A stretch of DNA of 64,000 nt from Candidatus Uhrbacteria bacterium (GTDB taxonomy: Bacteria; Patescibacteriota; Patescibacteriia; UBA9934; GWF2-40-263): the NCBI GenBank assembly GCA_016844925.1, contig JAERTI010000043.1:66642-130641 (forward strand). Reading direction: 5' to 3'. The translations under genes were made by a program, and so were the position numbers. The first letter of the stretch is position 1, and each line of letters opens with the position of its first letter. Shown here piece after piece: positions 4,806-62,697 of the stretch. The notes beneath the pieces are model-generated. The model saw only the letters and a list, made by a program, of their open reading frames with translations. It was not told the origin of the DNA and ran no database searches.

Positions 4806-5768
4806 ATGCCTGAATCAAATTCTTCCAGTTCCTTGCACTGGATTCTCGGAGCCGCTTTGCTCCTCATTGGGCTGTTCGTTGTTGTCGCACTCGTGAGTGT
4901 AAACTCACAGGCTGACACCGTGAACACTCAGACCGACGTTACGAACAACGCTCCAACCGTGGAGGACGTGTTCATTAACGATGCTGCATTTACCTTCGCA
5001 GACTCTTACTCCGGAGGAACCATTAACACGCTTGTTGCTGGTGGTCAGAAGACCATCTACGTGAATGGAAACGCGCGTGACACCAACGGACGAGGGGACA
5101 TTAAGGGCATCTCTACCGTATTATATCGAACGGCTGTAGGTGACGGATGTTCACCTGACTCCAACGACTGTTACGGTGTTGCTAGCTGTGGTACTCAGAA
5201 TGACACAGAGGGTGATCTCGAGGTTCTCGAGTACTCTTGCCCAATCAACCTTGACTACTGGGCAGACTCTACCAGTGCCGGTGGTACAGATGCTGGTGGT
5301 AACTGGACCGTAAAAGTAAGTGTTGAGGATAATGGTGGTGAGCATGGAACAGACTCCTCTCTCACAAAGGAGATGCAGACCCTCTTGGCTCTGAACATTC
5401 CTACTTCCATCAACTACGGAACCCTCACAAAGGGACAGAAGACAACTTCTTCTAACAACCAGACTCAGACCATGACTCAGCAGGGGAACGACCAGGCTGA
5501 CGTAGAGGTTTCATCTGCTTCTGACATGACTTGTACCAACACTGGTACCATTCCTGTAGCTAACCAGGAGTGGAGCCTTACAGATGAGGACCACTCACAC
5601 GGTTCTATGACAGACCTCTCAGGTTCTGCTACGGACACCAACTTGGCTGTTGGCTACAAGACAGCAGGTGACGTTACTGTAGACCTCTACTGGAACATCG
5701 AGCTTCCAGCACAGGACATTTCCGGTACCTGCACAGGTACAACAACCGTTACAGCAATCGCTGCTTAA
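4806..5768 (+). CDS. secreted Cys-containing protein, paralog 1 of a duplicated pair
   Basis: N-terminal TM/signal; shares motifs with 6070..7029 (NAPTV..., CSPDSNDCYGVASCG, ALNIP..., LYWNIELP...). Confidence 0.55.
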   Translation: MPESNSSSSLHWILGAALLLIGLFVVVALVSVNSQADTVNTQTDVTNNAPTVEDVFINDAAFTFADSYSGGTINTLVAGGQKTIYVNGNARDTNGRGDIKGISTVLYRTAVGDGCSPDSNDCYGVASCGTQNDTEGDLEVLEYSCPINLDYWADSTSAGGTDAGGNWTVKVSVEDNGGEHGTDSSLTKEMQTLLALNIPTSINYGTLTKGQKTTSSNNQTQTMTQQGNDQADVEVSSASDMTCTNTGTIPVANQEWSLTDEDHSHGSMTDLSGSATDTNLAVGYKTAGDVTVDLYWNIELPAQDISGTCTGTTTVTAIAA

Positions 5769-16134: not shown

Positions 16135-16211
16135 GGGCATGTAGCTCAGCTGGTTAGAGCGCATCCCTGATAAGGATGAGGTCGGAGGTTCGAGTCCTCC
16201 CATGCCCACCA
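16135..16211 (+). tRNA. tRNA-Ile(GAT), CCA encoded
   Basis: cloverleaf with anticodon loop cTGATAa; acceptor gggcatg/catgccc. Confidence 0.85.
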
Positions 16212-16217
16212 GAAGGC

Positions 16218-16292
16218 GCCGAGGTAGCTCAGGGGTAGAGCAGTGGACTGAAAATCCACGTGTCGTGAGTTCAAATCTCACCCTCGGCACCA
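16218..16292 (+). tRNA. tRNA-Phe(GAA), CCA encoded
   Basis: acceptor gccgagg/cctcggc, anticodon loop cTGAAAa. Confidence 0.85.
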
Positions 16293-22029: not shown

Positions 22030-23525
<1,496 letters not shown>

Positions 23526-23530
23526 ATATA

Positions 23531-36008: not shown

Positions 36009-36214
36009 AGAAAAGACGCCTGGTATCGGAGGAAGTAGAAAACGACGGGGCCAGCGTGAAAATAAAATCAGACGCCGGGGCGTCGTATTCAGTCTTCCTT
36101 TGCATCTTTCCCTTGCGGGATGGAGTTCGCACCTTATCGATTACTCGACAGGTTGCGGGCAGGTCATAGGGCCAATTCCCTCACTGCTCTCTGAATACGT
36201 TTCTTCAGTTGTTG

Positions 36215-40416: not shown

Positions 40417-40953
40417 TTACTCAGCAGCCTCTTCGGCTGGCTTCTCTTCTTCCGCAGGTGCTTCCTCTGCAGGAGCCTCCTCGGCCGGAGCTTCAGCCTC
40501 TGCGGCTGGTTCCTCTGCAGGAGCCTCTTCAGCTGGAGCTTCAGCTTCTGCCTTAGCAGCCTCGGCCTCAGCCTTAGCAGCCTCTGCAGCAGCAGCCTTC
40601 TCTTCTTCAGCCTTTGCCTTTGCAGCCTCTTCCTTCTCCTTAGCAGCAGCAGCCTTTTCTTCGATCTTTGCTGCGCGCTTCTTGGAGATGTGTGTAGAGC
40701 CACGCTTTTCACCTTCGACGATCTTTTGGTCGACGAGGAGGTTCCAGACGCTGTTAGAAGGCTGGGCACCCTGGCTGATCCAGTACTTTACGCGGTCAGC
40801 CTTGATGACGATTTCCTTAGGATTTGAGCGAGGGTTGTAGTGGCCAAGGATCTCGTTTGAGTCGGCCCATGGGTCGCGGTGCTTAGGCATTACAACAATG
40901 CGGTAAACCGGACGCTTTTTTGACCCCACGCGGGAGAGTCGAATAGAAAGCAT
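40417..40953 (-). CDS. rpsP: 30S ribosomal protein S16 with about 95-aa Ala/Glu/Lys-rich C-terminal extension
   Basis: MLSIRLSRVGSKKRPVYRIVV S16 N-terminus; repetitive AEEAPAEE tail encoded by tandem DNA repeats. Confidence 0.85.
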   Translation of the reverse strand: MLSIRLSRVGSKKRPVYRIVVMPKHRDPWADSNEILGHYNPRSNPKEIVIKADRVKYWISQGAQPSNSVWNLLVDQKIVEGEKRGSTHISKKRAAKIEEKAAAAKEKEEAAKAKAEEEKAAAAEAAKAEAEAAKAEAEAPAEEAPAEEPAAEAEAPAEEAPAEEAPAEEEKPAEEAAE

Positions 40954-43134: not shown

Positions 43135-43160
43135 ACCCATAACAACCCAATCCGCGAAGG

Positions 43161-43265
43161 CTAGTGAGGAACACGTCCTCACTAGCCACCAGAAATCTGT
43201 TCACGATCAGTGATCGTGACTGGGTTCTTGGGAAGAATGAGTCAACCCAGGAAAGGAGCCAAGGA
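43161..43265 (+). promoter_or_regulatory. duplicated leader region, copy 1: CTAG-hairpin, 19-bp perfect palindrome TCACGATCAgTGATCGTGA, CTGGGTT/AACCCAG stem, AAGGAG RBS
   Basis: near-identical copy at 43645..43750. Confidence 0.6.
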
Positions 43266-43625
43266 ATGGCTGAAGAGATCAAGACCGCTAAGGAGCTCAA
43301 TGACTACCTCGAAGAGATGGAGGTACAGATGAATGCTCAGCGGGCTGTGTGGATGGAGCGCAACGCCACCGGCGAGGTGTTCATCCTCGAGAATGGAACG
43401 GTCACCGACCGCTACCTGGTCGCTGAGGGGGTCGAGAATGGTGGGCTGTGCTTTGGATCGGAAGATCCCAAAAAAGCTTTCCACAACATGACCTTTAAGA
43501 TTGAGGGCAGGACCGTGGAGATCACGATTGAGTGTCCCAGCTTCCGGGCGCACATCGACTTCAACACCATCACGGAGGTTAGGGGCATGACGCTCCTGGC
43601 CGTTCCACGCAGTGTTCGTGGGTAG
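43266..43625 (+). CDS. hypothetical protein, paralog (GGLC...ECP Cys motifs)
   Basis: AAGGAG RBS; paralog of 43751..44128. Confidence 0.55.
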   Translation: MAEEIKTAKELNDYLEEMEVQMNAQRAVWMERNATGEVFILENGTVTDRYLVAEGVENGGLCFGSEDPKKAFHNMTFKIEGRTVEITIECPSFRAHIDFNTITEVRGMTLLAVPRSVRG

Positions 43626-43644
43626 AGACCCGTGAACACGAAGG

Positions 43645-43750
43645 GCTAGCGAGGAGTACGTCCAAGCTAGCCACCAGAAATCTGTTCACGATCAGTGATC
43701 GTGACTGGGTTCCTGGTAAGAATGAGCAAACCCAGGAAAGGAGCCAAGGA
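43645..43750 (+). promoter_or_regulatory. duplicated leader region, copy 2, with the same 19-bp palindrome
   Basis: about 90% identical to 43161..43265. Confidence 0.6.
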
Positions 43751-44128
43751 ATGGCTGAAGCAGCACTCGTCGCCCTCAAATCTCGACTCGCAGACATTCG
43801 ACTGAACATCTCTCAGCTGGAAGAGGCTGAGGAGAAGGCAATCCGAGAGTACTGTGATGAGAACGCGATGGCTGAGGTGAAGGTAATCGAGAAGAGCAGC
43901 GGAAAAGTGATTCGCACTTACCGCGTTGCGCGCGGTGTCTACAGCGGTGGTCTCTGCAACAGCTCGAACGTCGAAGAGCTGTGCTACGAGAACATGCAGT
44001 TCACCGTGAAGGACAACGAGAAGACCGTCCTCATGCGGGTCGAGTGCCCGCACTACATCACGGAGCTGCCCAACGACCAGCTCTTCAACTACAAGGACGT
44101 GCAGATCCTCGTGATCTGGCTGTCGTAG
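43751..44128 (+). CDS. hypothetical protein, paralog
   Basis: AAGGAG RBS; shares GGLC and ECP motifs with 43266..43625. Confidence 0.55.
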   Translation: MAEAALVALKSRLADIRLNISQLEEAEEKAIREYCDENAMAEVKVIEKSSGKVIRTYRVARGVYSGGLCNSSNVEELCYENMQFTVKDNEKTVLMRVECPHYITELPNDQLFNYKDVQILVIWLS

Positions 44129-44149
44129 TTACGACCTTAGACGAAGGGG

Positions 44150-44240
44150 GCTAGCAAAGATGACGTCTTGCTAGCCACTACCGGCCTGAGCTCGAGTTCC
44201 CTGCCTGCCGGCAGGCAGGTCGAGACCAGATCGGTGGAAC
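44150..44240 (+). repeat. hybrid cassette-boundary element: CTAG hairpin, GAGCTCGAG, 20-bp palindrome CCTGCCTGCCGGCAGGCAGG, TCGAGACC, AGATCGGTGGA
   Basis: combines the L-box of A-type repeats with the GATCGGTGGA end of G-type repeats. Confidence 0.5.
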
Positions 44241-44255
44241 TTCTACCAACAAACA

Positions 44256-44305
44256 ACCTCGTGCCCGCTCCCCCGGGATGTAGCCGTATAAAGACGGTGA
44301 GAGGA
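44256..44305 (+). promoter_or_regulatory. conserved 5'-UTR motif M, copy 1 (CCTCGTGCCCGC ... GATGTAGCC-hairpin-GGTGAGAGGA)
   Basis: recurs at 47441..47486 and 48074..48124 with compensatory stem changes. Confidence 0.55.
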
Positions 44306-44338
44306 AGCTCGATTCAAGATCGGGCACCAGAGATCGAC

Positions 44339-44527
44339 ATGCTGTTCTTCGTCCTCAACATGGTGGCCCTTGCGGCCGGCAGCGTTGGCTTCATCACCTG
44401 CCAGGTGATTCGGAGCAAGCGCCTGCTTACTGACCTGGAGGAGAAGGTGTACATGGGAAGCTTCGCGCTGGTCGCCTACGGAAGCATCTTCGGATGCGTC
44501 TCCGGCCTCGCGGTCTTCTACGGCTAG
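44339..44527 (+). CDS. small membrane protein (62 aa)
   Basis: two hydrophobic helices. Confidence 0.4.
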   Translation: MLFFVLNMVALAAGSVGFITCQVIRSKRLLTDLEEKVYMGSFALVAYGSIFGCVSGLAVFYG

Positions 44528-44664
44528 GACTTGAGCATCTGCTCAAACGGTCCTCCCTCTCCTGGACAACACAGGAGGGGGCTAACGACCCGGCCTCGAG
44601 TCTCTCGAGACTGGATCGGTGGAGTCCTCTGAGACAAAACCAAACCCTGCTGGAGCTCCTGCTG

Positions 44665-44892
44665 ATGCTGAACGAAAAGCTGCTGAACCTGCTGAAGATC
44701 CTCGGTCACGTCCTCGTGACCATCATCCTTTTGATCCCGACCATGGTCGCGCCGAGCTTCATGCTCGCGGACTACTTCGGGTTCGACCTGATGTACCTCA
44801 TCTCCACGACCAGCTGCGTGCTGGCGATCGCCTACGCGTTCATGGCGTTTGGTGAGAAGATGGGTGTGCGTTGGGAGATCATCCTCAACTAG
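44665..44892 (+). CDS. small membrane protein
   Basis: two TM helices; start uncertain. Confidence 0.35.
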   Translation: MLNEKLLNLLKILGHVLVTIILLIPTMVAPSFMLADYFGFDLMYLISTTSCVLAIAYAFMAFGEKMGVRWEIILN

Positions 44893-44900
44893 GAGAGCCC

Positions 44901-45098
44901 ATGCTCTTTTCCGCCCTCACGGGCTCGCTGGTCTTCCTCTGGCGTCTGCGCTCGCGCAGCCCCAAGGATGAGACCGAGCGTCGAATGCTGCAAAGCAAAC
45001 GGCGCCGGGCCCTGGCCGTGGCGGGAGGCGTGCTCGCGATCTACCTCATCGAGGTACTCGCGCTCGCCTTCGGAGCTTCGGCTCTGGCCTTCCACTAG
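44901..45098 (+). CDS. small membrane protein (65 aa)
   Basis: AGGAG RBS, two TM helices. Confidence 0.4.
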   Translation: MLFSALTGSLVFLWRLRSRSPKDETERRMLQSKRRRALAVAGGVLAIYLIEVLALAFGASALAFH

Positions 45099-45132
45099 CG
45101 CTCGACCGAGGAGAACGTCCTCGTGTCGGGCT

Positions 45133-45174
45133 CCTCAACGTAGAGCTCGAGCTTGCTTGAGACCTGCGTTGAGG
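45133..45174 (+). repeat. attC-like repeat, A-type (CCTCAAC gtagag CTCGAG n4 CTCGAG acctgc GTTGAGG)
   Basis: preceded by GAGGAgaacgTCCTC hairpin. Confidence 0.6.
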
Positions 45175-45260
45175 GGAACACTGTGCATTACCGATTCCTT
45201 CTTGAAACATTCGAGGATGTATCGGTGATGCAACGGAGTGTCACCTCAGAGGAATCTTTC

Positions 45261-45614
45261 ATGTACAAGTACATCGTCGCACTGGCGATCTTCCTGTTCG
45301 CCGCCAACCCCGCCTACGCCTGCTCGCAGGACACTGGCAAGCAGATCCACTTTGAGTGGGAGGGGGAGACCTACGTGGTCGAGGCGCACAGGGATGTCAA
45401 CGCGACCGTGACCAAAGCGGTCACCGGAACCGAGTTCGAGGTCGAGATCGTCAACGCGACGACGCTGATCCTCAAGCAGGGGCGCAGGACGCTCGCTACT
45501 GGGAGCATCTGGGCCTGCACCAAGTGCTTCATCGGTTCGCCCGGCTATGTGACGTGGGAAGGTGAGGAGAGTGCCAAGAACGCCTACGACGCTTGCATCG
45601 ACGCCGCCGGCTAG
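45261..45614 (+). CDS. small secreted protein
   Basis: signal peptide ...ANPAYA|C; alternative ATG at 45228. Confidence 0.5.
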   Translation: MYKYIVALAIFLFAANPAYACSQDTGKQIHFEWEGETYVVEAHRDVNATVTKAVTGTEFEVEIVNATTLILKQGRRTLATGSIWACTKCFIGSPGYVTWEGEESAKNAYDACIDAAG

Positions 45615-45699
45615 AGAAGACAGATAAGTGAGCCCCCGGCTTGCTTCTGCTCTGACGTGGCTACGTCAGACGCGCTCGGTATGGGAATGAACTATTCTC

Positions 45700-45753
45700 T
45701 GCCGAGCTTCACAGCATAGTGGTTGATTACAAAAATCGACCCCTGCGCTGGGG
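45700..45753 (+). repeat. degenerate attC-like repeat (GGTTGATT...TCGAC...GCTGGGG)
   Basis: B-type L-boxes retained, R-boxes diverged. Confidence 0.4.
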
Positions 45754-45801
45754 AAGACTGATCTTCCTTTGAGGCCCGTTCATTCGGGCAAGGATAGCAA
45801 C

Positions 45802-46314
45802 ATGCTGCTGATCGCTCTGACGATCGTGTCCACCATCGCCCACGCTGACCTCACTCCCGTTGGCGCCACCGCCGACGAGGTCAAGGTGGAGGCGGAGCTC
45901 GTGATGGTGAGCTGGTACCGCGACCACGGGGAGACCTGCGAGGTCGAGGGTCCCCACGGTCACATTCAGTACGCCGACGGCACCGACGAGGTCGTGATGC
46001 CGAGCGAGTCCAGCGACGAGTACGTGCTCGACTTCACGTTCTCTCGTGAGCAGTTCGAGGGCAAGAAGCCCGAGGCGAGCTCGGACGATTCCAACGAGAA
46101 GACCGAGGCCATCGACCCCGAGCTGACCCTCAAGTCCCACCCGTTCTTCGAGGAGTGGGACCGCCAGCTCAAGGAGAATGATAGCTTCGGCGAGGCTTTC
46201 GACAAGCAGCTCAAGCTCCAGCTCGCCAAGGAGCAGGCCGAGATCGAGGAGCCCACCGAGTCCGCCACCATCGAGGAGCCCGCCGAGTCCACCGAGGACA
46301 GCCCCTCGAAGTAG
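45802..46314 (+). CDS. secreted acidic protein
   Basis: AAGGA RBS, signal peptide ...TIAHA|D. Confidence 0.5.
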   Translation: MLLIALTIVSTIAHADLTPVGATADEVKVEAELVMVSWYRDHGETCEVEGPHGHIQYADGTDEVVMPSESSDEYVLDFTFSREQFEGKKPEASSDDSNEKTEAIDPELTLKSHPFFEEWDRQLKENDSFGEAFDKQLKLQLAKEQAEIEEPTESATIEEPAESTEDSPSK

Positions 46315-46411
46315 CTCGCCGGAGGTTCTCCTGCACATCCTCTGCGGCCAGATACGCTGGCACGCAGAGCGTCGCATCCCGCGACACGTCCTGAGCAACG
46401 TCTGCTCGGGA

Positions 46412-46453
46412 TTTCAACGTAGAGCTCGAGTTTGCTCGAGACCTGCGTTGAGG
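46412..46453 (+). repeat. attC-like repeat, A-type
   Basis: TTTCAAC...CTCGAGtttgCTCGAG...GTTGAGG. Confidence 0.6.
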
Positions 46454-46506
46454 GCTGAGGCTCTCTTGATCAAATCCTCAGTGCTACTGGGGTAAAGGAA
46501 CACGAC

Positions 46507-46770
46507 ATGTTGATGATCGCTCTGACCCTCCTGATGGGCAACGCGAACGCTGGCATGAAGCGCGGTAAGGCTTCGGCCTCGGACACTACTCCCGTCAGCC
46601 TCTACCACAACGGTGAGGTGGCGGAGCTGGACCGCCAGGAGCTGGTGCAGACTCTGCACGACCTGATGCATCCCAGCTGCGAGGTGAATACCTCGCACGT
46701 CCACCGCGTGAACAAGCATGGTCTGGAAGAGGTCATCCTCATGCCGACCGAGCCGACCACCACCAACTGA
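46507..46770 (+). CDS. small secreted protein
   Basis: GGGTAAAGGA leader, signal peptide. Confidence 0.45.
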   Translation: MLMIALTLLMGNANAGMKRGKASASDTTPVSLYHNGEVAELDRQELVQTLHDLMHPSCEVNTSHVHRVNKHGLEEVILMPTEPTTTN

Positions 46771-46799
46771 CCCGACGAGGTGAACGACTTCGTCGGGAT

Positions 46800-46841
46800 C
46801 CTCAACGTAGAGCTCGAGTTTGCTCGAGACCTGCGTTGGGG
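46800..46841 (+). repeat. attC-like repeat, A-type
   Basis: CCTCAAC...GTTGGGG; preceded by cccgacgagg..ttcgtcggg hairpin. Confidence 0.6.
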
Positions 46842-46950
46842 AACCGCCCCTAAGTAAGATAACCGTCCGTGATCTGCAGCGCGCCGACATTTCCGTCGAG
46901 CAGCGCATATTGCAGCACTGGCAACTTCTGTGCGAGAGCGCGGGGGTATC

Positions 46951-47271
46951 ATGTTTCTGACTCAGATCTACAGCGCCGTGGAAGGTGACTTCAAGGCCAA
47001 CGCCGTCCGTATCACTGAGGTGGAGGCTGGCACAGGTATCTGGCTCGATCCTGAAGCTGATCCGCTCCTGGTCGTCGGTGAGTACATTCTGATGACTTCC
47101 GAAGGGAGGATTCTGGATGAGGATGAGTCCATCGAGGTCACGGTGAGGTCGCAGGGCATTCGTGTCCGCGTTCGTCTGTTCCATGATGGGCATGAGGCGG
47201 CAGCCTGGTGTCTGCTCCAGACAATCGGTAACGCGTCCATCAACACTGTCACGATCGATTGCGATGACTAA
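46951..47271 (+). CDS. hypothetical protein
   Basis: ORF within cassette. Confidence 0.45.
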   Translation: MFLTQIYSAVEGDFKANAVRITEVEAGTGIWLDPEADPLLVVGEYILMTSEGRILDEDESIEVTVRSQGIRVRVRLFHDGHEAAAWCLLQTIGNASINTVTIDCDD

Positions 47272-47380
47272 CGTTAAAGCAACCTGCACGAGACAGTACA
47301 TGACCCCGTCAGGCACGGATGACCTGGCGGGTATGACCGGGCTCAGCTCGGCACGCCTCAAGTACACGCAACGCTTGAGG

Positions 47381-47422
47381 ATCGAACGTAGAGCTCGAGT
47401 CTACTCGAGACCTGCGTTGGGG
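47381..47422 (+). repeat. attC-like repeat, A-type
   Basis: ATCGAAC...CTCGAGtctaCTCGAG...GTTGGGG. Confidence 0.55.
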
Positions 47423-47440
47423 AACGTTCCCTAGAACCAA

Positions 47441-47486
47441 ACCTCGTGCCCGCAAGGGATGTAGCCACAGTAAGAGTGGTGAGAGA
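47441..47486 (+). promoter_or_regulatory. conserved 5'-UTR motif M, copy 2 (stem CCAC/GTGG instead of CCGT/ACGG)
   Basis: compensatory change in the hairpin relative to copies 1 and 3. Confidence 0.55.
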
Positions 47487-47529
47487 ATGTGCGCCTGGGC
47501 GCACGCGGACTTGTCCGCACGGGATACAG

Positions 47530-47952
47530 ATGAAGACGCAAGCGTGTACGGCACTGGCGGTTACCCGCCGGAGTGAGCTGTACATCACGGTTCAGATCTA
47601 CGGAAGTCGCGCGATCGATGAGCCCAACATCAAGGTGCTCGCCCTGAGCGATTTCGTTCGATGGATCGCACCGGGTGTGACCGTTCAGCGCATCGCACAG
47701 AACCTGGTCCGTGTCCGTGAAATCGCCCCCGATTGGACTGCGAAGGTGGTCTACGGTGACGCCATCGGTTTGGGTGAGCCCTGCCTGCTTTCTGACAATC
47801 GCGCCGTAGTGTGTGTCTGGGCGACGGAGGAGGAGGCCTGGGATCACTGGGACGAGGTCATGGATCGCTGGCATCGGATGATGGAAGAAGATGCTCGTTA
47901 CTGGGACGAGCGGACTCTGGAAGAGCTGAGTGACTCGAGCCTGATGGCTTAA
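47530..47952 (+). CDS. hypothetical protein (141 aa)
   Basis: downstream of motif M. Confidence 0.45.
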   Translation: MKTQACTALAVTRRSELYITVQIYGSRAIDEPNIKVLALSDFVRWIAPGVTVQRIAQNLVRVREIAPDWTAKVVYGDAIGLGEPCLLSDNRAVVCVWATEEEAWDHWDEVMDRWHRMMEEDARYWDERTLEELSDSSLMA

Positions 47953-47987
47953 CGAGCCGACACTGGGAGAACGTCCCCGTGTCGGAC

Positions 47988-48058
47988 TCCCAACGTAGAG
48001 GTTGATTAACCACGTAAAACCCTTCGGGTCACGTGGCACGTCGACACCTGCGTTGGGG
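47988..48058 (+). repeat. attC-like repeat, B-type (GTTGAT ... ccacgt-aaaaccCTTCGgggt-cacgtgg ... GTCGAC acctgc GTTGGGG)
   Basis: internal UUCG-type tetraloop hairpin. Confidence 0.6.
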
Positions 48059-48073
48059 AAACCCTGCAACCAT

Positions 48074-48124
48074 CCCTCGCGCTTGGCCTGGCCAAGATGT
48101 AGCCGTGTAAAGACGGTGAGAGAA
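48074..48124 (+). promoter_or_regulatory. conserved 5'-UTR motif M, copy 3
   Basis: GATGTAGCCGTGTAAAGACGGTGAGAGAA followed by GCGGAggtTTCCGC hairpin. Confidence 0.55.
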
Positions 48125-48149
48125 CGCGGAGGTTTCCGCACGGATACGA

Positions 48150-48677
48150 ATGAAACTACGAACACCGGATGTGCACGAGGTTCGTCGGCGGGTCTACCAG
48201 TCCTGCTACGAGCTTCAGCACGCCAGGCAGGTCGTTGATGACGCCTGTCGAGCTGGTAGTTACTGGGCACTGGGCTGCGCACTCCGCGTGGAACAGATCG
48301 CTCAGCAGGCGCTGGCTGAGAATGAGAGAGCTCTGGAGAGGGAGCGTGATTACGCCATCTTCATAGAGCATTTGCGCAAGCATAGTACCGAGATTGCTCG
48401 TAGGCTTTCTCTGGTGCAGGCCCTGGAAGAAGAGTGTGCGTTCCTGGAGAAGAAGTGGGACGACGCTCGAGCTGATTTGGCCCATCAGCTGCGCCTTGCC
48501 AAGCGCCCCGGCCGCCCCGGAAAGAACGCGGCCGATCTCATTGGTGGTTTTGAGGCGGAGGTGGAGATTCACTGCCGCAACTATTTCGAGAAAGAAAGGG
48601 AACTCAGGTGCGCGCGTGAGTGGTGGTACAGGCTCATGTACCCCTGCCACCATAGGCATCTCAAGGTACGCGCGTAA
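48150..48677 (+). CDS. hypothetical helical protein (175 aa)
   Basis: downstream of motif M. Confidence 0.45.
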   Translation: MKLRTPDVHEVRRRVYQSCYELQHARQVVDDACRAGSYWALGCALRVEQIAQQALAENERALERERDYAIFIEHLRKHSTEIARRLSLVQALEEECAFLEKKWDDARADLAHQLRLAKRPGRPGKNAADLIGGFEAEVEIHCRNYFEKERELRCAREWWYRLMYPCHHRHLKVRA

Positions 48678-48726
48678 GACCTTGAGCGAGCTTGCTCGAC
48701 AGAGGAGTACGTCCTCCTGTCGGGCT

Positions 48727-48797
48727 CCTCAACACAGAGGTTGATTAACCACGTAAAACCCTTCGGGTCACGTGGCACGTCGACATCTGCGTTGGGG
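48727..48797 (+). repeat. attC-like repeat, B-type
   Basis: near-identical to 47988..48058. Confidence 0.6.
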
Positions 48798-48828
48798 AAA
48801 CCCTGACTCAGACCTATAGGAGGCCTTT

Positions 48829-59127: not shown

Positions 59128-59221
59128 TTCGACGAGTCTGCCACGCAGACCAACACCGGCAGGGTGAAGCCGGTACGCTATGACAAGCAGAACACCCGGA
59201 CGCTTGTCACTACTGACCCGC

Positions 59222-59262
59222 GCTCGATAAGTTCGAGAGCGGATCGGTGGATGTTCTATCTG
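59222..59262 (+). repeat. G-type hairpin repeat (ACTGACCCGCGCTCGA n4 TCGAGAGCGGATCGGTGG)
   Basis: 16-bp imperfect stem, variable 4-nt loop; four copies. Confidence 0.55.
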
Positions 59263-59949: not shown

Positions 59950-59992
59950 CAAGTAAACATTACGACGGGTGGACAATCGTGTTCACCCGGCT

Positions 59993-60031
59993 ACTGACCC
60001 GCGCTCGACAAGTTCGAGAGCGGATCGGTGG
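59993..60031 (+). repeat. G-type hairpin repeat
   Basis: loop caag. Confidence 0.55.
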
Positions 60032-60974: not shown

Positions 60975-61132
60975 AAGCGTTCATGTTCCTTGGTTGACCA
61001 GCTCGGTCAGAGGCAAGGAGGAACAGCGATTGTGGGAGACGGTGAGATACCGTCAACGAGCCCAAGTCATACGGACTTGGGACTACTGACCCGCGCTCGA
61101 GAGATCGAGAGCGGATCGGTGGACACAACGTT
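60975..61132 (+). repeat. about 150-nt structured element ending in a G-type hairpin, copy 1
   Basis: about 85% identical to 61845..61998 with compensatory changes. Confidence 0.55.
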
Positions 61133-61844: not shown

Positions 61845-61998
61845 CTTCGTTTAGGTTCCTTTGTTGACCAGCTCGGTCAGAGGCAAAGAGGAACATCGGA
61901 TGTGGGAGACGGTGCAATACCGTCGACGACCTCAAGTCAAACGGACTTGAGGGCACTGACCCGCGCTCGAGTAGATCGAGAGCGGATCAGTGGTTAGC
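61845..61998 (+). repeat. about 150-nt structured element ending in a G-type hairpin, copy 2
   Basis: paralog of 60975..61132. Confidence 0.55.
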
Positions 61999-62111
61999 CA
62001 CTGTGAACTCCTCGTGCCCTTTGGGTATAGCTGGGAGGAAAGCCCAGTGAGAGGAATCTGTGCAGGCCGTGAGGTCGCATAGAGCGGGCGAGAGTCCGTG
62101 ATGAGTAGAAG

Positions 62112-62534
62112 ATGAGTGAAGTCTGGTGGGAAATCGCCGTAGTGTTGATGCTTGCCTTGTTGGGACTTGGCATGATGGAAATCCTGATCCTGGTCCTCGG
62201 GCGGATGACCATTCTGTGGTATAGGCGTCAGCCGTTCCACCTGGTCTGGCGCAAGGGCTGTGACTACGAGATCATCCCGCTGCGCGTCGGGCAGATCGTG
62301 GAGCTGGATACGGAGCTCTTCGCCGAAGCGCTCGCCGAGGGTTTCGTGCAAGTGACTCGTGGGGACCATGTCCCCATGATCGTTCGGGAGGGCTATGTGC
62401 ACTCCCGGCGTGTGGATGGCTGCAGCTTCAAGCTGTACGTCGGCTCCAAGTCCTACCAGCGCGCTGAATCGTTCGTCCGGCGCCGCAAGGTCGTCAACGG
62501 GCTCCGTGCCACGTTCGGGTACGATCCCAAGTAA
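62112..62534 (+). CDS. hypothetical protein with N-terminal TM (140 aa)
   Basis: ORF within cassette. Confidence 0.45.
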   Translation: MSEVWWEIAVVLMLALLGLGMMEILILVLGRMTILWYRRQPFHLVWRKGCDYEIIPLRVGQIVELDTELFAEALAEGFVQVTRGDHVPMIVREGYVHSRRVDGCSFKLYVGSKSYQRAESFVRRRKVVNGLRATFGYDPK

Positions 62535-62578
62535 GCAGGCGAGCTACGCGCTCACCGTGAGGATGCTCTCCTCCGGTG

Positions 62579-62645
62579 GGCTCCTCAACAGAGAGGTTGA
62601 CCACGTAAAGCCCTTTGGGCCACGTGGCAAGATCGACAGCTCTGT
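62579..62645 (+). repeat. attC-like repeat, B-type variant (internal gcccTTTGgggc hairpin)
   Basis: compensatory variant of the B-type internal hairpin. Confidence 0.55.
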
Positions 62646-62697
62646 TGGGGAACCATCCCTACAAACGTCCCGGCGTATCCGGGTAAAGGACACAGAG

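What the first reader, a model, noticed from the sequence alone, without database searches (positions are those of the whole stretch)
44256..48124. Conserved structured 5'-UTR motif upstream of three unrelated cassette genes
Three copies (44256-44305, 47441-47486, 48074-48124) share CCTCGyGCCCGC ... GATGTAGCC-[stem-loop]-GGTGAGAG. The stem is CCGT/ACGG in two copies and CCAC/GTGG in the third, a compensatory double change. Copies 2 and 3 are followed by a GCGGA-loop-TCCGC hairpin and ACGG(G)ATACrr immediately before the ATG.

The downstream proteins are unrelated (62-aa membrane protein, 141-aa, 175-aa). This looks like a cassette-borne cis-regulatory RNA (riboswitch-like, thermosensor or translational operator) or a mobile promoter/leader module.
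Basis: seen in the sequence. Interest (0 to 1): 0.7.

Follow-up and report, generated by a model that had tools for sequence, protein, structure and literature searches.

The report
Shared structured leader in integron cassettes
Four unrelated genes in one bacterial gene-cassette array carry the same ~48-base folded leader in front of them and, unlike their neighbours, have no normal ribosome-binding site, so this is probably a new portable RNA element for controlling translation, though its function is untested.

Summary
The three copies exist, and a fourth, more diverged copy lies at 62010-62054.

- **Structure:** all four read CCUCGYG, a variable hairpin (P2), (A)URUAGC, a second hairpin (P3), then GUGAGAGR. 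Five base pairs in P2 and P3 keep pairing through changes on both sides. The joining strands never change.
- **Position:** each copy sits 16-24 nt after an attC-like recombination site, on the coding strand. All four leaders share one layout: motif, 2 nt, one or two GC hairpins, 10-13 nt, AUG.
- **Genes:** the four downstream proteins are mutually unrelated and match no known family.
- **Known families:** no Rfam family matches.
- **Other sequences:** the only further copies are the same cassettes in related marine-metagenome strains.
- **New finding:** the four motif cassettes are the only ones of 36 with essentially no Shine-Dalgarno sequence at the start codon (0/4 against 30/32). In three leaders the tract most complementary to the 16S 3' end is the motif's own tail.

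I read it as an RNA-level, cassette-borne translation leader. I found no support for a promoter, and ligand sensing is untested. With four copies in one lineage, confidence is moderate.

The parts
44257..44304 (+). Motif copy c1: CCUCGUG, P2 (CCCG/CGGG), AUGUAGC, P3 (CGU/ACG, loop AUAAAG), GUGAGAGG
   Evidence: Covariance model score 54.1 bits.
47442..47486 (+). Motif copy c2: P2 is CCC-GCAA-GGG; P3 is CAC/GUG with loop AGUAAGA
   Evidence: Score 51.2 bits. The related-strain version differs only in the P2 loop, GCAA to UCAA.
48075..48123 (+). Motif copy c3: P2 is CUUGG-CCUGG-CCAAG; P3 is CGU/ACG with loop GUAAAG
   Evidence: Score 57.7 bits. The related-strain version differs only in the P2 loop, CCUGG to CUUGG.
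62010..62054 (+).
   Evidence: Score 54.5 bits.
44305..44338 (+). Rest of the c1 leader: AA, hairpin 44307-44325, then a 13-nt spacer with no Shine-Dalgarno sequence before the AUG
   Evidence: Sequence, fold, Shine-Dalgarno energy -2.9 kcal/mol.
47487..47529 (+). Rest of the c2 leader: AU, hairpins 47489-47504 and 47505-47518, then an 11-nt spacer before the AUG
   Evidence: Shine-Dalgarno energy -4.1 kcal/mol.
48124..48149 (+). Rest of the c3 leader: AC, hairpin 48126-48139, then a 10-nt spacer before the AUG
   Evidence: Shine-Dalgarno energy -3.3 kcal/mol.
62055..62111 (+). Rest of the c4 leader: AA, hairpins 62057-62083 and 62084-62099, then a 12-nt spacer before the AUG
   Evidence: Shine-Dalgarno energy -2.4 kcal/mol.
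44339..44527 (+). c1 cassette ORF: 62 aa, hydrophobic, no family match
47530..47952 (+). c2 cassette ORF: 140 aa, no family match
48150..48677 (+). c3 cassette ORF: 175 aa, no family match
62112..62534 (+). c4 cassette ORF: 140 aa with a hydrophobic N-terminus, no family match. The related-strain version is only 71% identical in DNA, while the leader is 99% identical.
44228..44237 (+). End of the attC-like site (AGATCGGTGG) that precedes c1. The motif starts 19 nt later.
47412..47422 (+). End of the attC site (CTGCGTTGGGG, R' core GTTGGGG) that precedes c2. The motif starts 19 nt later.
48048..48058 (+). End of the attC site (CTGCGTTGGGG) that precedes c3. The motif starts 16 nt later.
61984..61993 (+). 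End of the attC-like site (GGATCAGTGG) that precedes c4. The motif starts 16 nt later.

Best explanation
The motif is a ~48-nt element of the cassette mRNA leader.

Fold. It forms two adjacent hairpins, P2 and P3. A short helix, P1, closes them by pairing CUC or CCUC with part of GAGAGR, which makes a small three-way junction. The joining strands (GYG, AURUAG) and the purine-rich 3' tail (GGUGAGAGR-AA) never change.

Proposed role. It is a portable translation-initiation and control module for cassettes that have no Shine-Dalgarno sequence of their own.
- The invariant tail is complementary to the 3' end of this organism's 16S rRNA.
- I infer that the tail, or a factor that recognises the junction, recruits or holds the small ribosomal subunit at the motif.
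- I infer that the hairpins between the motif and the AUG shorten the effective distance to the start codon.
- I infer that forming P1 hides the tail, which would give an on/off point.

Shown: the copies, the two hairpins with compensatory changes, the common leader layout, the missing Shine-Dalgarno sequences, and where the anti-Shine-Dalgarno complementarity lies.

Inferred: that it acts as RNA, that it governs translation, and how it does so.
For: 1. There are four copies, all on the coding strand and all 16-24 nt after an attC-like end. None occurs elsewhere in the 64 kb.
2. P2 and P3 pair in 100% of cells. Five pairs keep pairing through changes on both sides. Sliding the partners by 1-3 columns drops pairing to 41-47%. 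RNAalifold finds P2, P3 and a P1 on its own. RNAfold gives the P2 and P3 pairs probabilities of 0.62-1.0 within the full leaders.
3. Between strains, the only changes inside the motif core fall in the two P2 loops.
4. Copy-to-copy indels are not multiples of three, and only 2 of 4 copies are in frame with the downstream ORF. The motif is therefore not coding (sequence).
5. All four leaders have the same layout: motif, 2 nt, one or two hairpins, 10-13 nt, AUG.
6. Among 36 called cassette genes, the four motif cassettes have the weakest anti-Shine-Dalgarno pairing at -18..-4: -2.4 to -4.1 against a median of -9.0 kcal/mol (Mann-Whitney p=0.0007). A core Shine-Dalgarno 4-mer is present in 0/4 against 30/32 (Fisher p=0.0003). 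In the window, no alternative in-frame start gives c1-c3 a usable Shine-Dalgarno; the best for c4 is a GTG at 62142 at -6.0 kcal/mol.
7. In c1, c2 and c4 the tract most complementary to the 16S 3' end (GAUCACCUCCUUUCU) is the motif tail, at -7.4 to -9.7 kcal/mol.
Against: - There are only four independent copies, all in one lineage's array, and my structural alignment was made by hand.
- P1 never varies, so nothing supports it beyond sequence conservation, and two registers are possible.
- No stem has a covarying G-U pair, so the data cannot tell RNA from single-stranded DNA or one strand from the other.
- After removing the hairpins, the tail is still 12-15 nt from the AUG, longer than the usual 5-9 nt.
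- In c3 the best anti-Shine-Dalgarno match is GGAGG inside the downstream hairpin, not the tail.
- In c4 the tail reads AGUGA, not GGUGA.
- Start sites for the comparison genes come from a gene caller that may favour Shine-Dalgarno-bearing starts.
- There are no transcription or translation data.
Confidence: 0.5

Rival explanations
1. The RNA element acts on the transcript rather than on translation. It could be a processing site or a new small self-cleaving ribozyme that frees each cassette mRNA from the upstream attC hairpin. It could instead be a put-like RNA that keeps RNA polymerase reading through the hairpin-rich array, or a 5' structure that stabilises the mRNA.
For: It shares the same structural evidence: a three-way junction with invariant joining strands. 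It sits at the very start of the cassette, just after the attC site. The array is full of hairpins that could block transcription or translation.
Against: - No Rfam ribozyme or other family matches, even at E<=10.
- The hammerhead core sequences (CUGANGA, GAAA) are absent from the junction strands.
- This reading does not explain why exactly the four Shine-Dalgarno-less cassettes carry the motif.
- Only about 4 of 25-30 cassettes have it.
Confidence: 0.15
2. It is a structure in single-stranded DNA, or a DNA site, that works in cassette recombination or replication. It could be an accessory site for the integrase or a host factor, next to the attC crossover point.
For: - It lies 16-24 nt from the attC-like end.
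- Hairpin covariation fits single-stranded DNA as well as RNA. Weinberg et al. make this point for the DUF1874 motif (PMC5737381).
- In the related strain, the c2 cassette follows a different neighbour, and homology starts only at AACCAAACCTCG, right at the motif's 5' edge.
Against: - It lacks the RYYYAAC/GTTRRRY cores.
- It occurs in only 4 of about 25-30 cassettes, and after both attC types.
- A recombination role would not predict the link with missing Shine-Dalgarno sequences or the constant spacing of the leader relative to the AUG.
- No integrase gene was found next to the array.
Confidence: 0.12
3. It has no function of its own. A leader fragment spread among cassettes by duplication or gene conversion, and the hairpins are incidental in G+C-rich DNA.
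For: - It is confined to one lineage.
- c2 and c3 are adjacent and share their whole leader.
- The c4 leader is 99% identical between strains while its coding sequence is 71% identical, which points to recombination acting on leaders.
- The array holds another shared leader module, a hairpin followed by GGTAAAGG.
Against: - The four copies differ at many positions, yet every stem change is compensated and the joining strands are invariant.
- Similarity ends at the motif's edges in c1 and c4 compared with c2 and c3.
- All four copies have the same orientation and the same leader layout.
- The motif is linked to absence of a Shine-Dalgarno sequence (p about 0.0003).
Confidence: 0.12
4. It is a cassette-borne promoter or operator in double-stranded DNA.
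For: Some cassettes in large chromosomal arrays carry their own promoters (bioRxiv 10.1101/2023.11.21.568050, seen only in the listing). Copy 1 has TATAAA.
Against: - TATAAA is not conserved. It reads TGTAAA, AGTAAG and GGAAAG in the other copies and lies in a hairpin loop.
- P2 varies in length (9-15 nt), which rules out a fixed spacing across it.
- The sigma-70 scan finds nothing at the three motifs in 44000-48800; c4 lay outside the scan.
- Inverted repeats that change sequence but keep complementarity do not fit a sequence-specific operator.
- Caveat: promoters in this phylum may not fit the sigma-70 consensus.
Confidence: 0.08

Closest known systems
attI1 leader of class 1 integrons (the proposed 'aminoglycoside riboswitch') with its ORF-11/ORF-17/ORF-18 translational-coupling elements
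   Same: A conserved leader sits in front of unrelated integron cassettes. It serves cassettes that lack their own translation initiation region, which is about 20% of class 1 cassettes according to the review PMC8876359. As there, unrelated downstream genes argue against a dedicated ligand sensor (PMC9410878).
   Different: - That leader belongs to the integron platform (attI1) and acts only on the first cassette. This motif lies inside individual cassettes anywhere in the array.
- ORF-11 works through a short translated ORF with its own Shine-Dalgarno and ATG. No short ORF is conserved here, because c1 and c3 have no start codon after the tail (sequence).
- The attI1 conservation is explained by the recombination site. 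This motif shows compensatory stem changes.
DUF1874 motif (Weinberg et al. 2017, PMC5737381)
   Same: It is a conserved multi-stem element in the apparent 5' UTRs of successive genes, in an integron-like arrangement with no integrase nearby. It has the same unresolved question of RNA versus single-stranded DNA.
   Different: - DUF1874 occurs in consecutive intergenic regions and is suspected to be the attC site itself.
- Here the attC sites are separate and recognisable, and the motif is in only 4 of about 25-30 cassettes.
- No Rfam family, which I assume includes DUF1874, scores on these regions.
Split or remote ribosome-binding sites and ribosome standby sites, such as phage T4 gene 38 and E. 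coli tisB (from my own knowledge, not checked here)
   Same: A ribosome-binding tract lies far upstream of the start codon, with stable hairpins between them. The start codon itself lacks a usable Shine-Dalgarno sequence.
   Different: - Those are single-gene cases with no conserved three-way junction.
- Here the element is modular and shared among unrelated mobile genes.
- The residual spacing of 12-15 nt is longer than in the T4 case.
- The mechanism is not tested here.
Small riboswitch aptamers built on a three-way junction
   Same: Similar size, a junction with invariant joining nucleotides, variable hairpins, and a position in the 5' leader on the coding strand.
   Different: - The downstream genes share no function.
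- There is no terminator or consistent Shine-Dalgarno-sequestering helix.
- No known class matches.
- No ligand can be inferred.

Membership tests
Any Rfam 15 family (riboswitches, ribozymes, leaders, attC-like motifs) | Covariance-model score at or above the family's gathering threshold | tested here: not met
   No match at gathering level over the whole window. No relevant match at E<=10 over 44100-48300 or 61950-62150.
Riboswitch (general kind) | Conserved aptamer structure supported by covariation | tested here: inconclusive
   P2 and P3 covary at 5 pairs. P1 and the junctions are invariant. Only 4 independent copies exist.
Riboswitch (general kind) | Association with genes of one pathway or function, from which a ligand can be named | tested here: not met
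   The four downstream proteins are mutually unrelated. None matches Pfam, NCBIfam or PADLOC.
Riboswitch (general kind) | Expression platform: a terminator, or a helix that hides the ribosome-binding site and competes with the aptamer | tested here: inconclusive
   No terminator-like site follows the three motifs in the scanned stretch. Complementarity between the 5' strand and the downstream leader is significant only in c1 (p about 0.005); the others give 0.06-0.18.
Riboswitch (general kind) | Direct ligand binding | not testable with these tools
   This needs in-line probing or a similar assay.
Integron attC recombination site | Imperfect palindrome bounded by inverse core sites RYYYAAC and GTTRRRY, at the 3' end of a cassette | tested here: not met
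   The motif lies after the R' core, at the cassette's 5' end, and has neither core. The true attC sites are separate repeats.
ORF-11/ORF-17/ORF-18-type translational-coupling leader | Serves cassettes that lack their own translation initiation region | tested here: met
   A core Shine-Dalgarno 4-mer is present in 0/4 motif cassettes against 30/32 others.
ORF-11/ORF-17/ORF-18-type translational-coupling leader | A short ORF with its own Shine-Dalgarno and start codon, conserved in the leader | tested here: not met
   c2 has an AUG and c4 a GUG after the tail. c1 and c3 have no AUG, GUG or UUG there (sequence).
Sigma-70-type promoter | -35 and -10 hexamers at a 16-18 nt spacing, conserved among copies | tested here: not met
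   The scan finds none at the three motifs in 44000-48800; c4 was not scanned. The TATAAA-like hexamer is not conserved. P2 length varies. The scan does not cover non-canonical promoters.
Hammerhead and other small self-cleaving ribozymes | Family-specific conserved core, e.g. CUGANGA...GAAA around a three-way junction; self-cleavage | tested here: not met
   No Rfam ribozyme match. The junction strands are GYG, AURUAG and (U)GA. Self-cleavage itself cannot be tested here.

The most novel reading that the evidence does not exclude
This would be a new class of mobile, cassette-borne RNA element that gives individual integron cassettes their own ribosome recruitment or translational switch, independent of a Shine-Dalgarno sequence. 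It might respond to a common cellular signal or trans-acting factor. A subset of otherwise silent cassettes could then be switched on together wherever they sit in the array.
Probability: 0.3. Interest if true: 0.75.

Novelty: new variant of a known kind. Interest (0 to 1): 0.5.

Why it matters
Current integron models say cassette expression depends on the platform promoter and on how well upstream cassettes are translated (PMC11511950). Cassettes without their own initiation region are thought to rely on the attI1 short ORFs, and only in first position (PMC8876359).

A structured leader that travels with the cassette and replaces or gates the Shine-Dalgarno sequence would be a third route. 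It would make post-transcriptional control part of the mobile unit. That could explain how genes deep in large chromosomal arrays are kept silent yet inducible.

It would also add a small, well-delimited RNA junction from an under-studied group to the list of orphan RNA motifs. The host is probably a marine planctomycete. The 48-nt element is small enough for direct reporter, probing and 30S-binding tests.

Tried and rejected
**Searches for more copies**
- Exact-pattern scans found nothing real.
  - Viral contigs: 0 hits, then 5 chance hits.
  - One genome per species: 2 chance hits.
  - JGI metagenomes: 29 hits, all lacking the hairpins and scoring 12-23 bits.
- My first patterns required GATGTAGCC, so they would have missed c4-like variants.
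- The metagenome collection is not exhaustive. It missed a JGI contig (L035) that does hold exact matches.
- Homologues of three cassette proteins: only their own near-identical clusters.
- Exact-sequence and cluster look-ups reached related strains only. These carry the same c2, c3 and c4 cassettes and no new copy.
- The plasmid collection gave nothing.

**Readings considered and dropped**
- Protein-coding motif: rejected because of frame-breaking indels and stop codons.
- GUG inside GGUGAGAG as the true start: rejected, because it is in frame in only 2 of 4 copies.
- Conserved upstream short ORF: rejected, because c1 and c3 have no start codon.
- CsrA-type GGA site: rejected, because GGA is not conserved in c3 or c4.
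- Pseudoknot between the 5' flank (CURN) and the junction (NUAG): rejected, because the c2 flank differs in the related strain and cannot pair.
- Kissing loops between P2 and P3: rejected, because c2 has a GCAA loop with no partner.
- Lambda nut-like boxA/boxB: considered from memory only; no sequence support.
- Strand preference from folding energy: none seen.

Full report
**Setting.**
- Window 41-64 kb is an array of short + strand ORFs, each followed by an attC-like imperfect palindrome.
- The sites fall into two families. One ends ...CTGCGTTGRGG, with inverse cores CCTCAAC and GTTGAGG. The other ends ...GGATCRGTGG.
- No integrase gene is nearby. The upstream neighbours are rpsP and a radical SAM gene, and the far end in related contigs holds an SMC/AAA gene. 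The array therefore looks like an attC cluster without an integrase.
- The 16S gene at 22031-23527 carries ACACCUACGGGUGGCUGC. From memory this is the target of the Planctomycetales probe EUB338-II, which I did not check here.
- That 16S gene lies in a 48% G+C stretch, whereas the array is about 60% G+C. The taxonomic label is tentative for that reason.
- Related contigs come from marine metagenomes, including the northern Gulf of Mexico 'dead zone'.

- ATGTAGCC-N(6-16)-GGTGAGAG occurs three times, against none in shuffles.
- While reading every cassette leader I found a fourth, diverged copy at 62010-62054.
- I built a covariance model from a structural alignment. It scores the four copies at 51-58 bits, and nothing else in the window exceeds 11 bits, even with filters off.
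- Each copy lies 16-24 nt after an attC-like end, on the coding strand, and follows either attC type.
- The downstream proteins (62, 140, 175 and 140 aa) are mutually unrelated. None matches Pfam, NCBIfam or PADLOC.

**Anatomy.** The motif reads CCUCGYG, P2, (A)URUAGC, P3, GUGAGAGR-AA.

| Copy | P2 stem | P2 loop | P3 stem | P3 loop |
|---|---|---|---|---|
| c1 | CCCG/CGGG | CUCCCC | CCGU/ACGG | AUAAAG |
| c2 | CCC/GGG | GCAA | CCAC/GUGG | AGUAAGA |
| c3 | CUUGG/CCAAG | CCUGG | CCGU/ACGG | GUAAAG |
| c4 | CCC/GGG | UUU | CUGGG/CCCAG | AGGAAAG |

- Five pairs change on both sides and stay paired, and P2 and P3 are 100% paired. Sliding the 3' partners by 1-3 columns drops pairing to 41-47%.
- RNAalifold recovers P2 and P3 independently, plus a three-pair P1 (CUC/GAG) stacked on P3.
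- P1 is invariant, so it is unsupported by covariation, and two registers are possible.
- The alignment was hand-made, with N padding so that MAFFT kept the columns. That favours the proposed structure.
- The motif is not coding. Indels between copies break the reading frame, and the GUG in the tail is in frame with the gene in only two copies.
- No Rfam 15 family matches.

**Not a whole-cassette duplication.**
- c2 and c3 are adjacent and share their whole leader. c2 has one extra hairpin.
- c1 and c4 share only the core with them.
- In related strains the same c2, c3 and c4 cassettes are present. The only substitutions inside the core fall in the P2 loops.
- The c4 leader is 99% identical between strains, whereas the coding sequence is 71% identical and still clearly homologous as protein. 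That mosaic suggests leaders and attC flanks are exchanged or homogenised separately from the cargo gene.

**Spread.**
- Exact-pattern scans of viral contigs, one genome per species and JGI metagenomes gave only chance matches.
- These negatives are weak. The patterns were strict, and the metagenome collection missed a JGI contig that does hold matches.
- Protein-based routes reached only close relatives of the same organism. Their arrays, scanned in full, hold the same three cassettes and nothing new.

**Link to translation.**
- All four leaders share one layout: motif, 2 nt, one or two G+C-rich hairpins without U-tracts, a 10-13 nt spacer, then AUG.
- Among 36 called cassette genes in these arrays, the four motif cassettes have the weakest pairing to the 16S 3' end at -18..-4.
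  - Their energies are -2.4 to -4.1 kcal/mol, against a median of -9.0 (Mann-Whitney p=0.0007).
  - None has a core Shine-Dalgarno 4-mer, against 30 of 32 others (Fisher p=0.0003).
- In the window, considering every in-frame start in the first 35% of each open frame gives c1-c3 no usable Shine-Dalgarno. The best alternative for c4 is a GTG at 62142, at -6.0 kcal/mol.
- The 16S 3' end is GAUCACCUCCUUUCU. In c1, c2 and c4 the leader tract most complementary to it is the motif tail GGUGAGAGR, at -7.4 to -9.7 kcal/mol. In c3 it is a GGAGG half-buried in the downstream hairpin.

**Interpretation.**
- I conclude that the motif most likely acts as RNA and concerns translation initiation of cassettes that have no Shine-Dalgarno sequence.
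- The tail could act as a remote or standby ribosome-binding tract, or the junction could be the operator for a trans-acting factor.
- The exact mechanism is inferred. After removing the hairpins, the tail-to-AUG distance of 12-15 nt is longer than ideal.
- A competing helix between the motif's 5' strand and the region near the ribosome-binding site is significant only in c1.

**Rivals.**
- A transcript-level role (processing, ribozyme, antitermination or stabilisation) fits the structure but not the Shine-Dalgarno link.
- A single-stranded DNA role near the crossover site cannot be excluded from covariation alone. Weinberg et al. note the same limit for the DUF1874 motif.
- The promoter idea is not supported (the TATAAA is not conserved and P2 length varies).
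- Neutral spread of a leader fragment fits the narrow distribution. It does not fit the fully compensated stems and invariant junctions.

**Comparison with known systems.**
- The nearest analogue is the class 1 integron attI1 leader. It was proposed as an aminoglycoside riboswitch and later refuted (PMC9410878).
- Its ORF-11/17/18 short ORFs help cassettes that lack an initiation region (PMC8876359).
- This motif shares that problem, Shine-Dalgarno-less cassettes, but not that solution. It has no conserved short ORF, it is carried by the cassette rather than the platform, and it shows structural covariation.
- I therefore do not file it in any known family. I rate it a new variant of a known kind (a cis-acting structured leader) with moderate confidence and moderate interest.

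Noticed in passing
window 1-26000 versus 28000-64000: G+C rises from about 48% to about 60% near 26-28 kb. The 16S gene (22031-23527, - strand) and two tRNAs (16135-16289) lie in the low-G+C part, and the cassette array lies in the high part. This could be a genomic island or a chimeric metagenome-assembled contig, so assigning the array to a taxon from the 16S gene is uncertain.
   Followed up: no
window 36099-36201 (-): SAM-I riboswitch, 55.5 bits against a gathering score of 44.4.
   Followed up: no
window 44180-44237, 44586-44622, 59210-59250, 59991-60031, 61082-61122, 61953-61993 versus the other attC sites: Two families of attC-like sites share one array. One is canonical (CCTCAAC...GTTGRGG). 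The other ends GGATCRGTGG and has no GTT core. Motif cassettes follow both types.
   Followed up: partly
window 46491, 49378, 62682, 63455: A second leader module is shared by four other cassettes: a hairpin (e.g. CCCGGCGUAUCCGGG), then GGUAAAGG (a Shine-Dalgarno sequence), then 6-7 nt and the start codon (D9, 83). Leaders in this array seem to be modular in general.
   Followed up: partly
window 61930-62660 versus L033 18790-19530: The c4 cassette is a mosaic between strains. The leader is 99% identical (120/121), and the upstream attC and 3' UTR are also nearly identical in the alignment, but the coding sequence is only 71% identical in DNA. This suggests recombination at the conserved flanks, or unusually fast divergence of the gene.
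   Followed up: partly
window 47412-47441 versus L033 9885-9912: The c2 cassette follows different upstream cassettes in the two strains. Homology begins at AACCAAACCTCG, not at the G|TT crossover point. The 6-10 nt after GTTGGGGAA differ.
   Followed up: no
window 44232-44246, 47419-47430, 48055-48064, 61988-62003: Each motif-bearing cassette begins with a small hairpin that includes the attC R' box and its complement: GGUGGA-ACU-UCUACC, GGGAAC/GUUCCC, GGG-GAAA-CCC and CAGUGG-UUAG-CCACUG. In RNA this could compete with folding of the attC hairpin (sequence).
   Followed up: no
window 47990-48058 versus L033 10470-10580: The attC site after the c2 gene has the same ends in both strains but a different central part. 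The window has a short version and L033 a much longer one.
   Followed up: no
window 40417-40953 (-): Ribosomal protein S16 carries a long low-complexity C-terminal tail encoded by 15-57 nt tandem repeats at 40422-40660 (D5, 15).
   Followed up: no
window 43159-43275 and 43644-43760: A 117-nt direct repeat, 91% identical, lies at the start of two neighbouring cassettes upstream of the finding (D14).
   Followed up: no
L035 (JGI Ga0063241_1001449) 4818-4862 and 5490-5538: This JGI contig holds exact matches to the scanned pattern but was not returned by the metagenome-contig scan. Negative results from that scan are therefore not exhaustive.
   Followed up: yes
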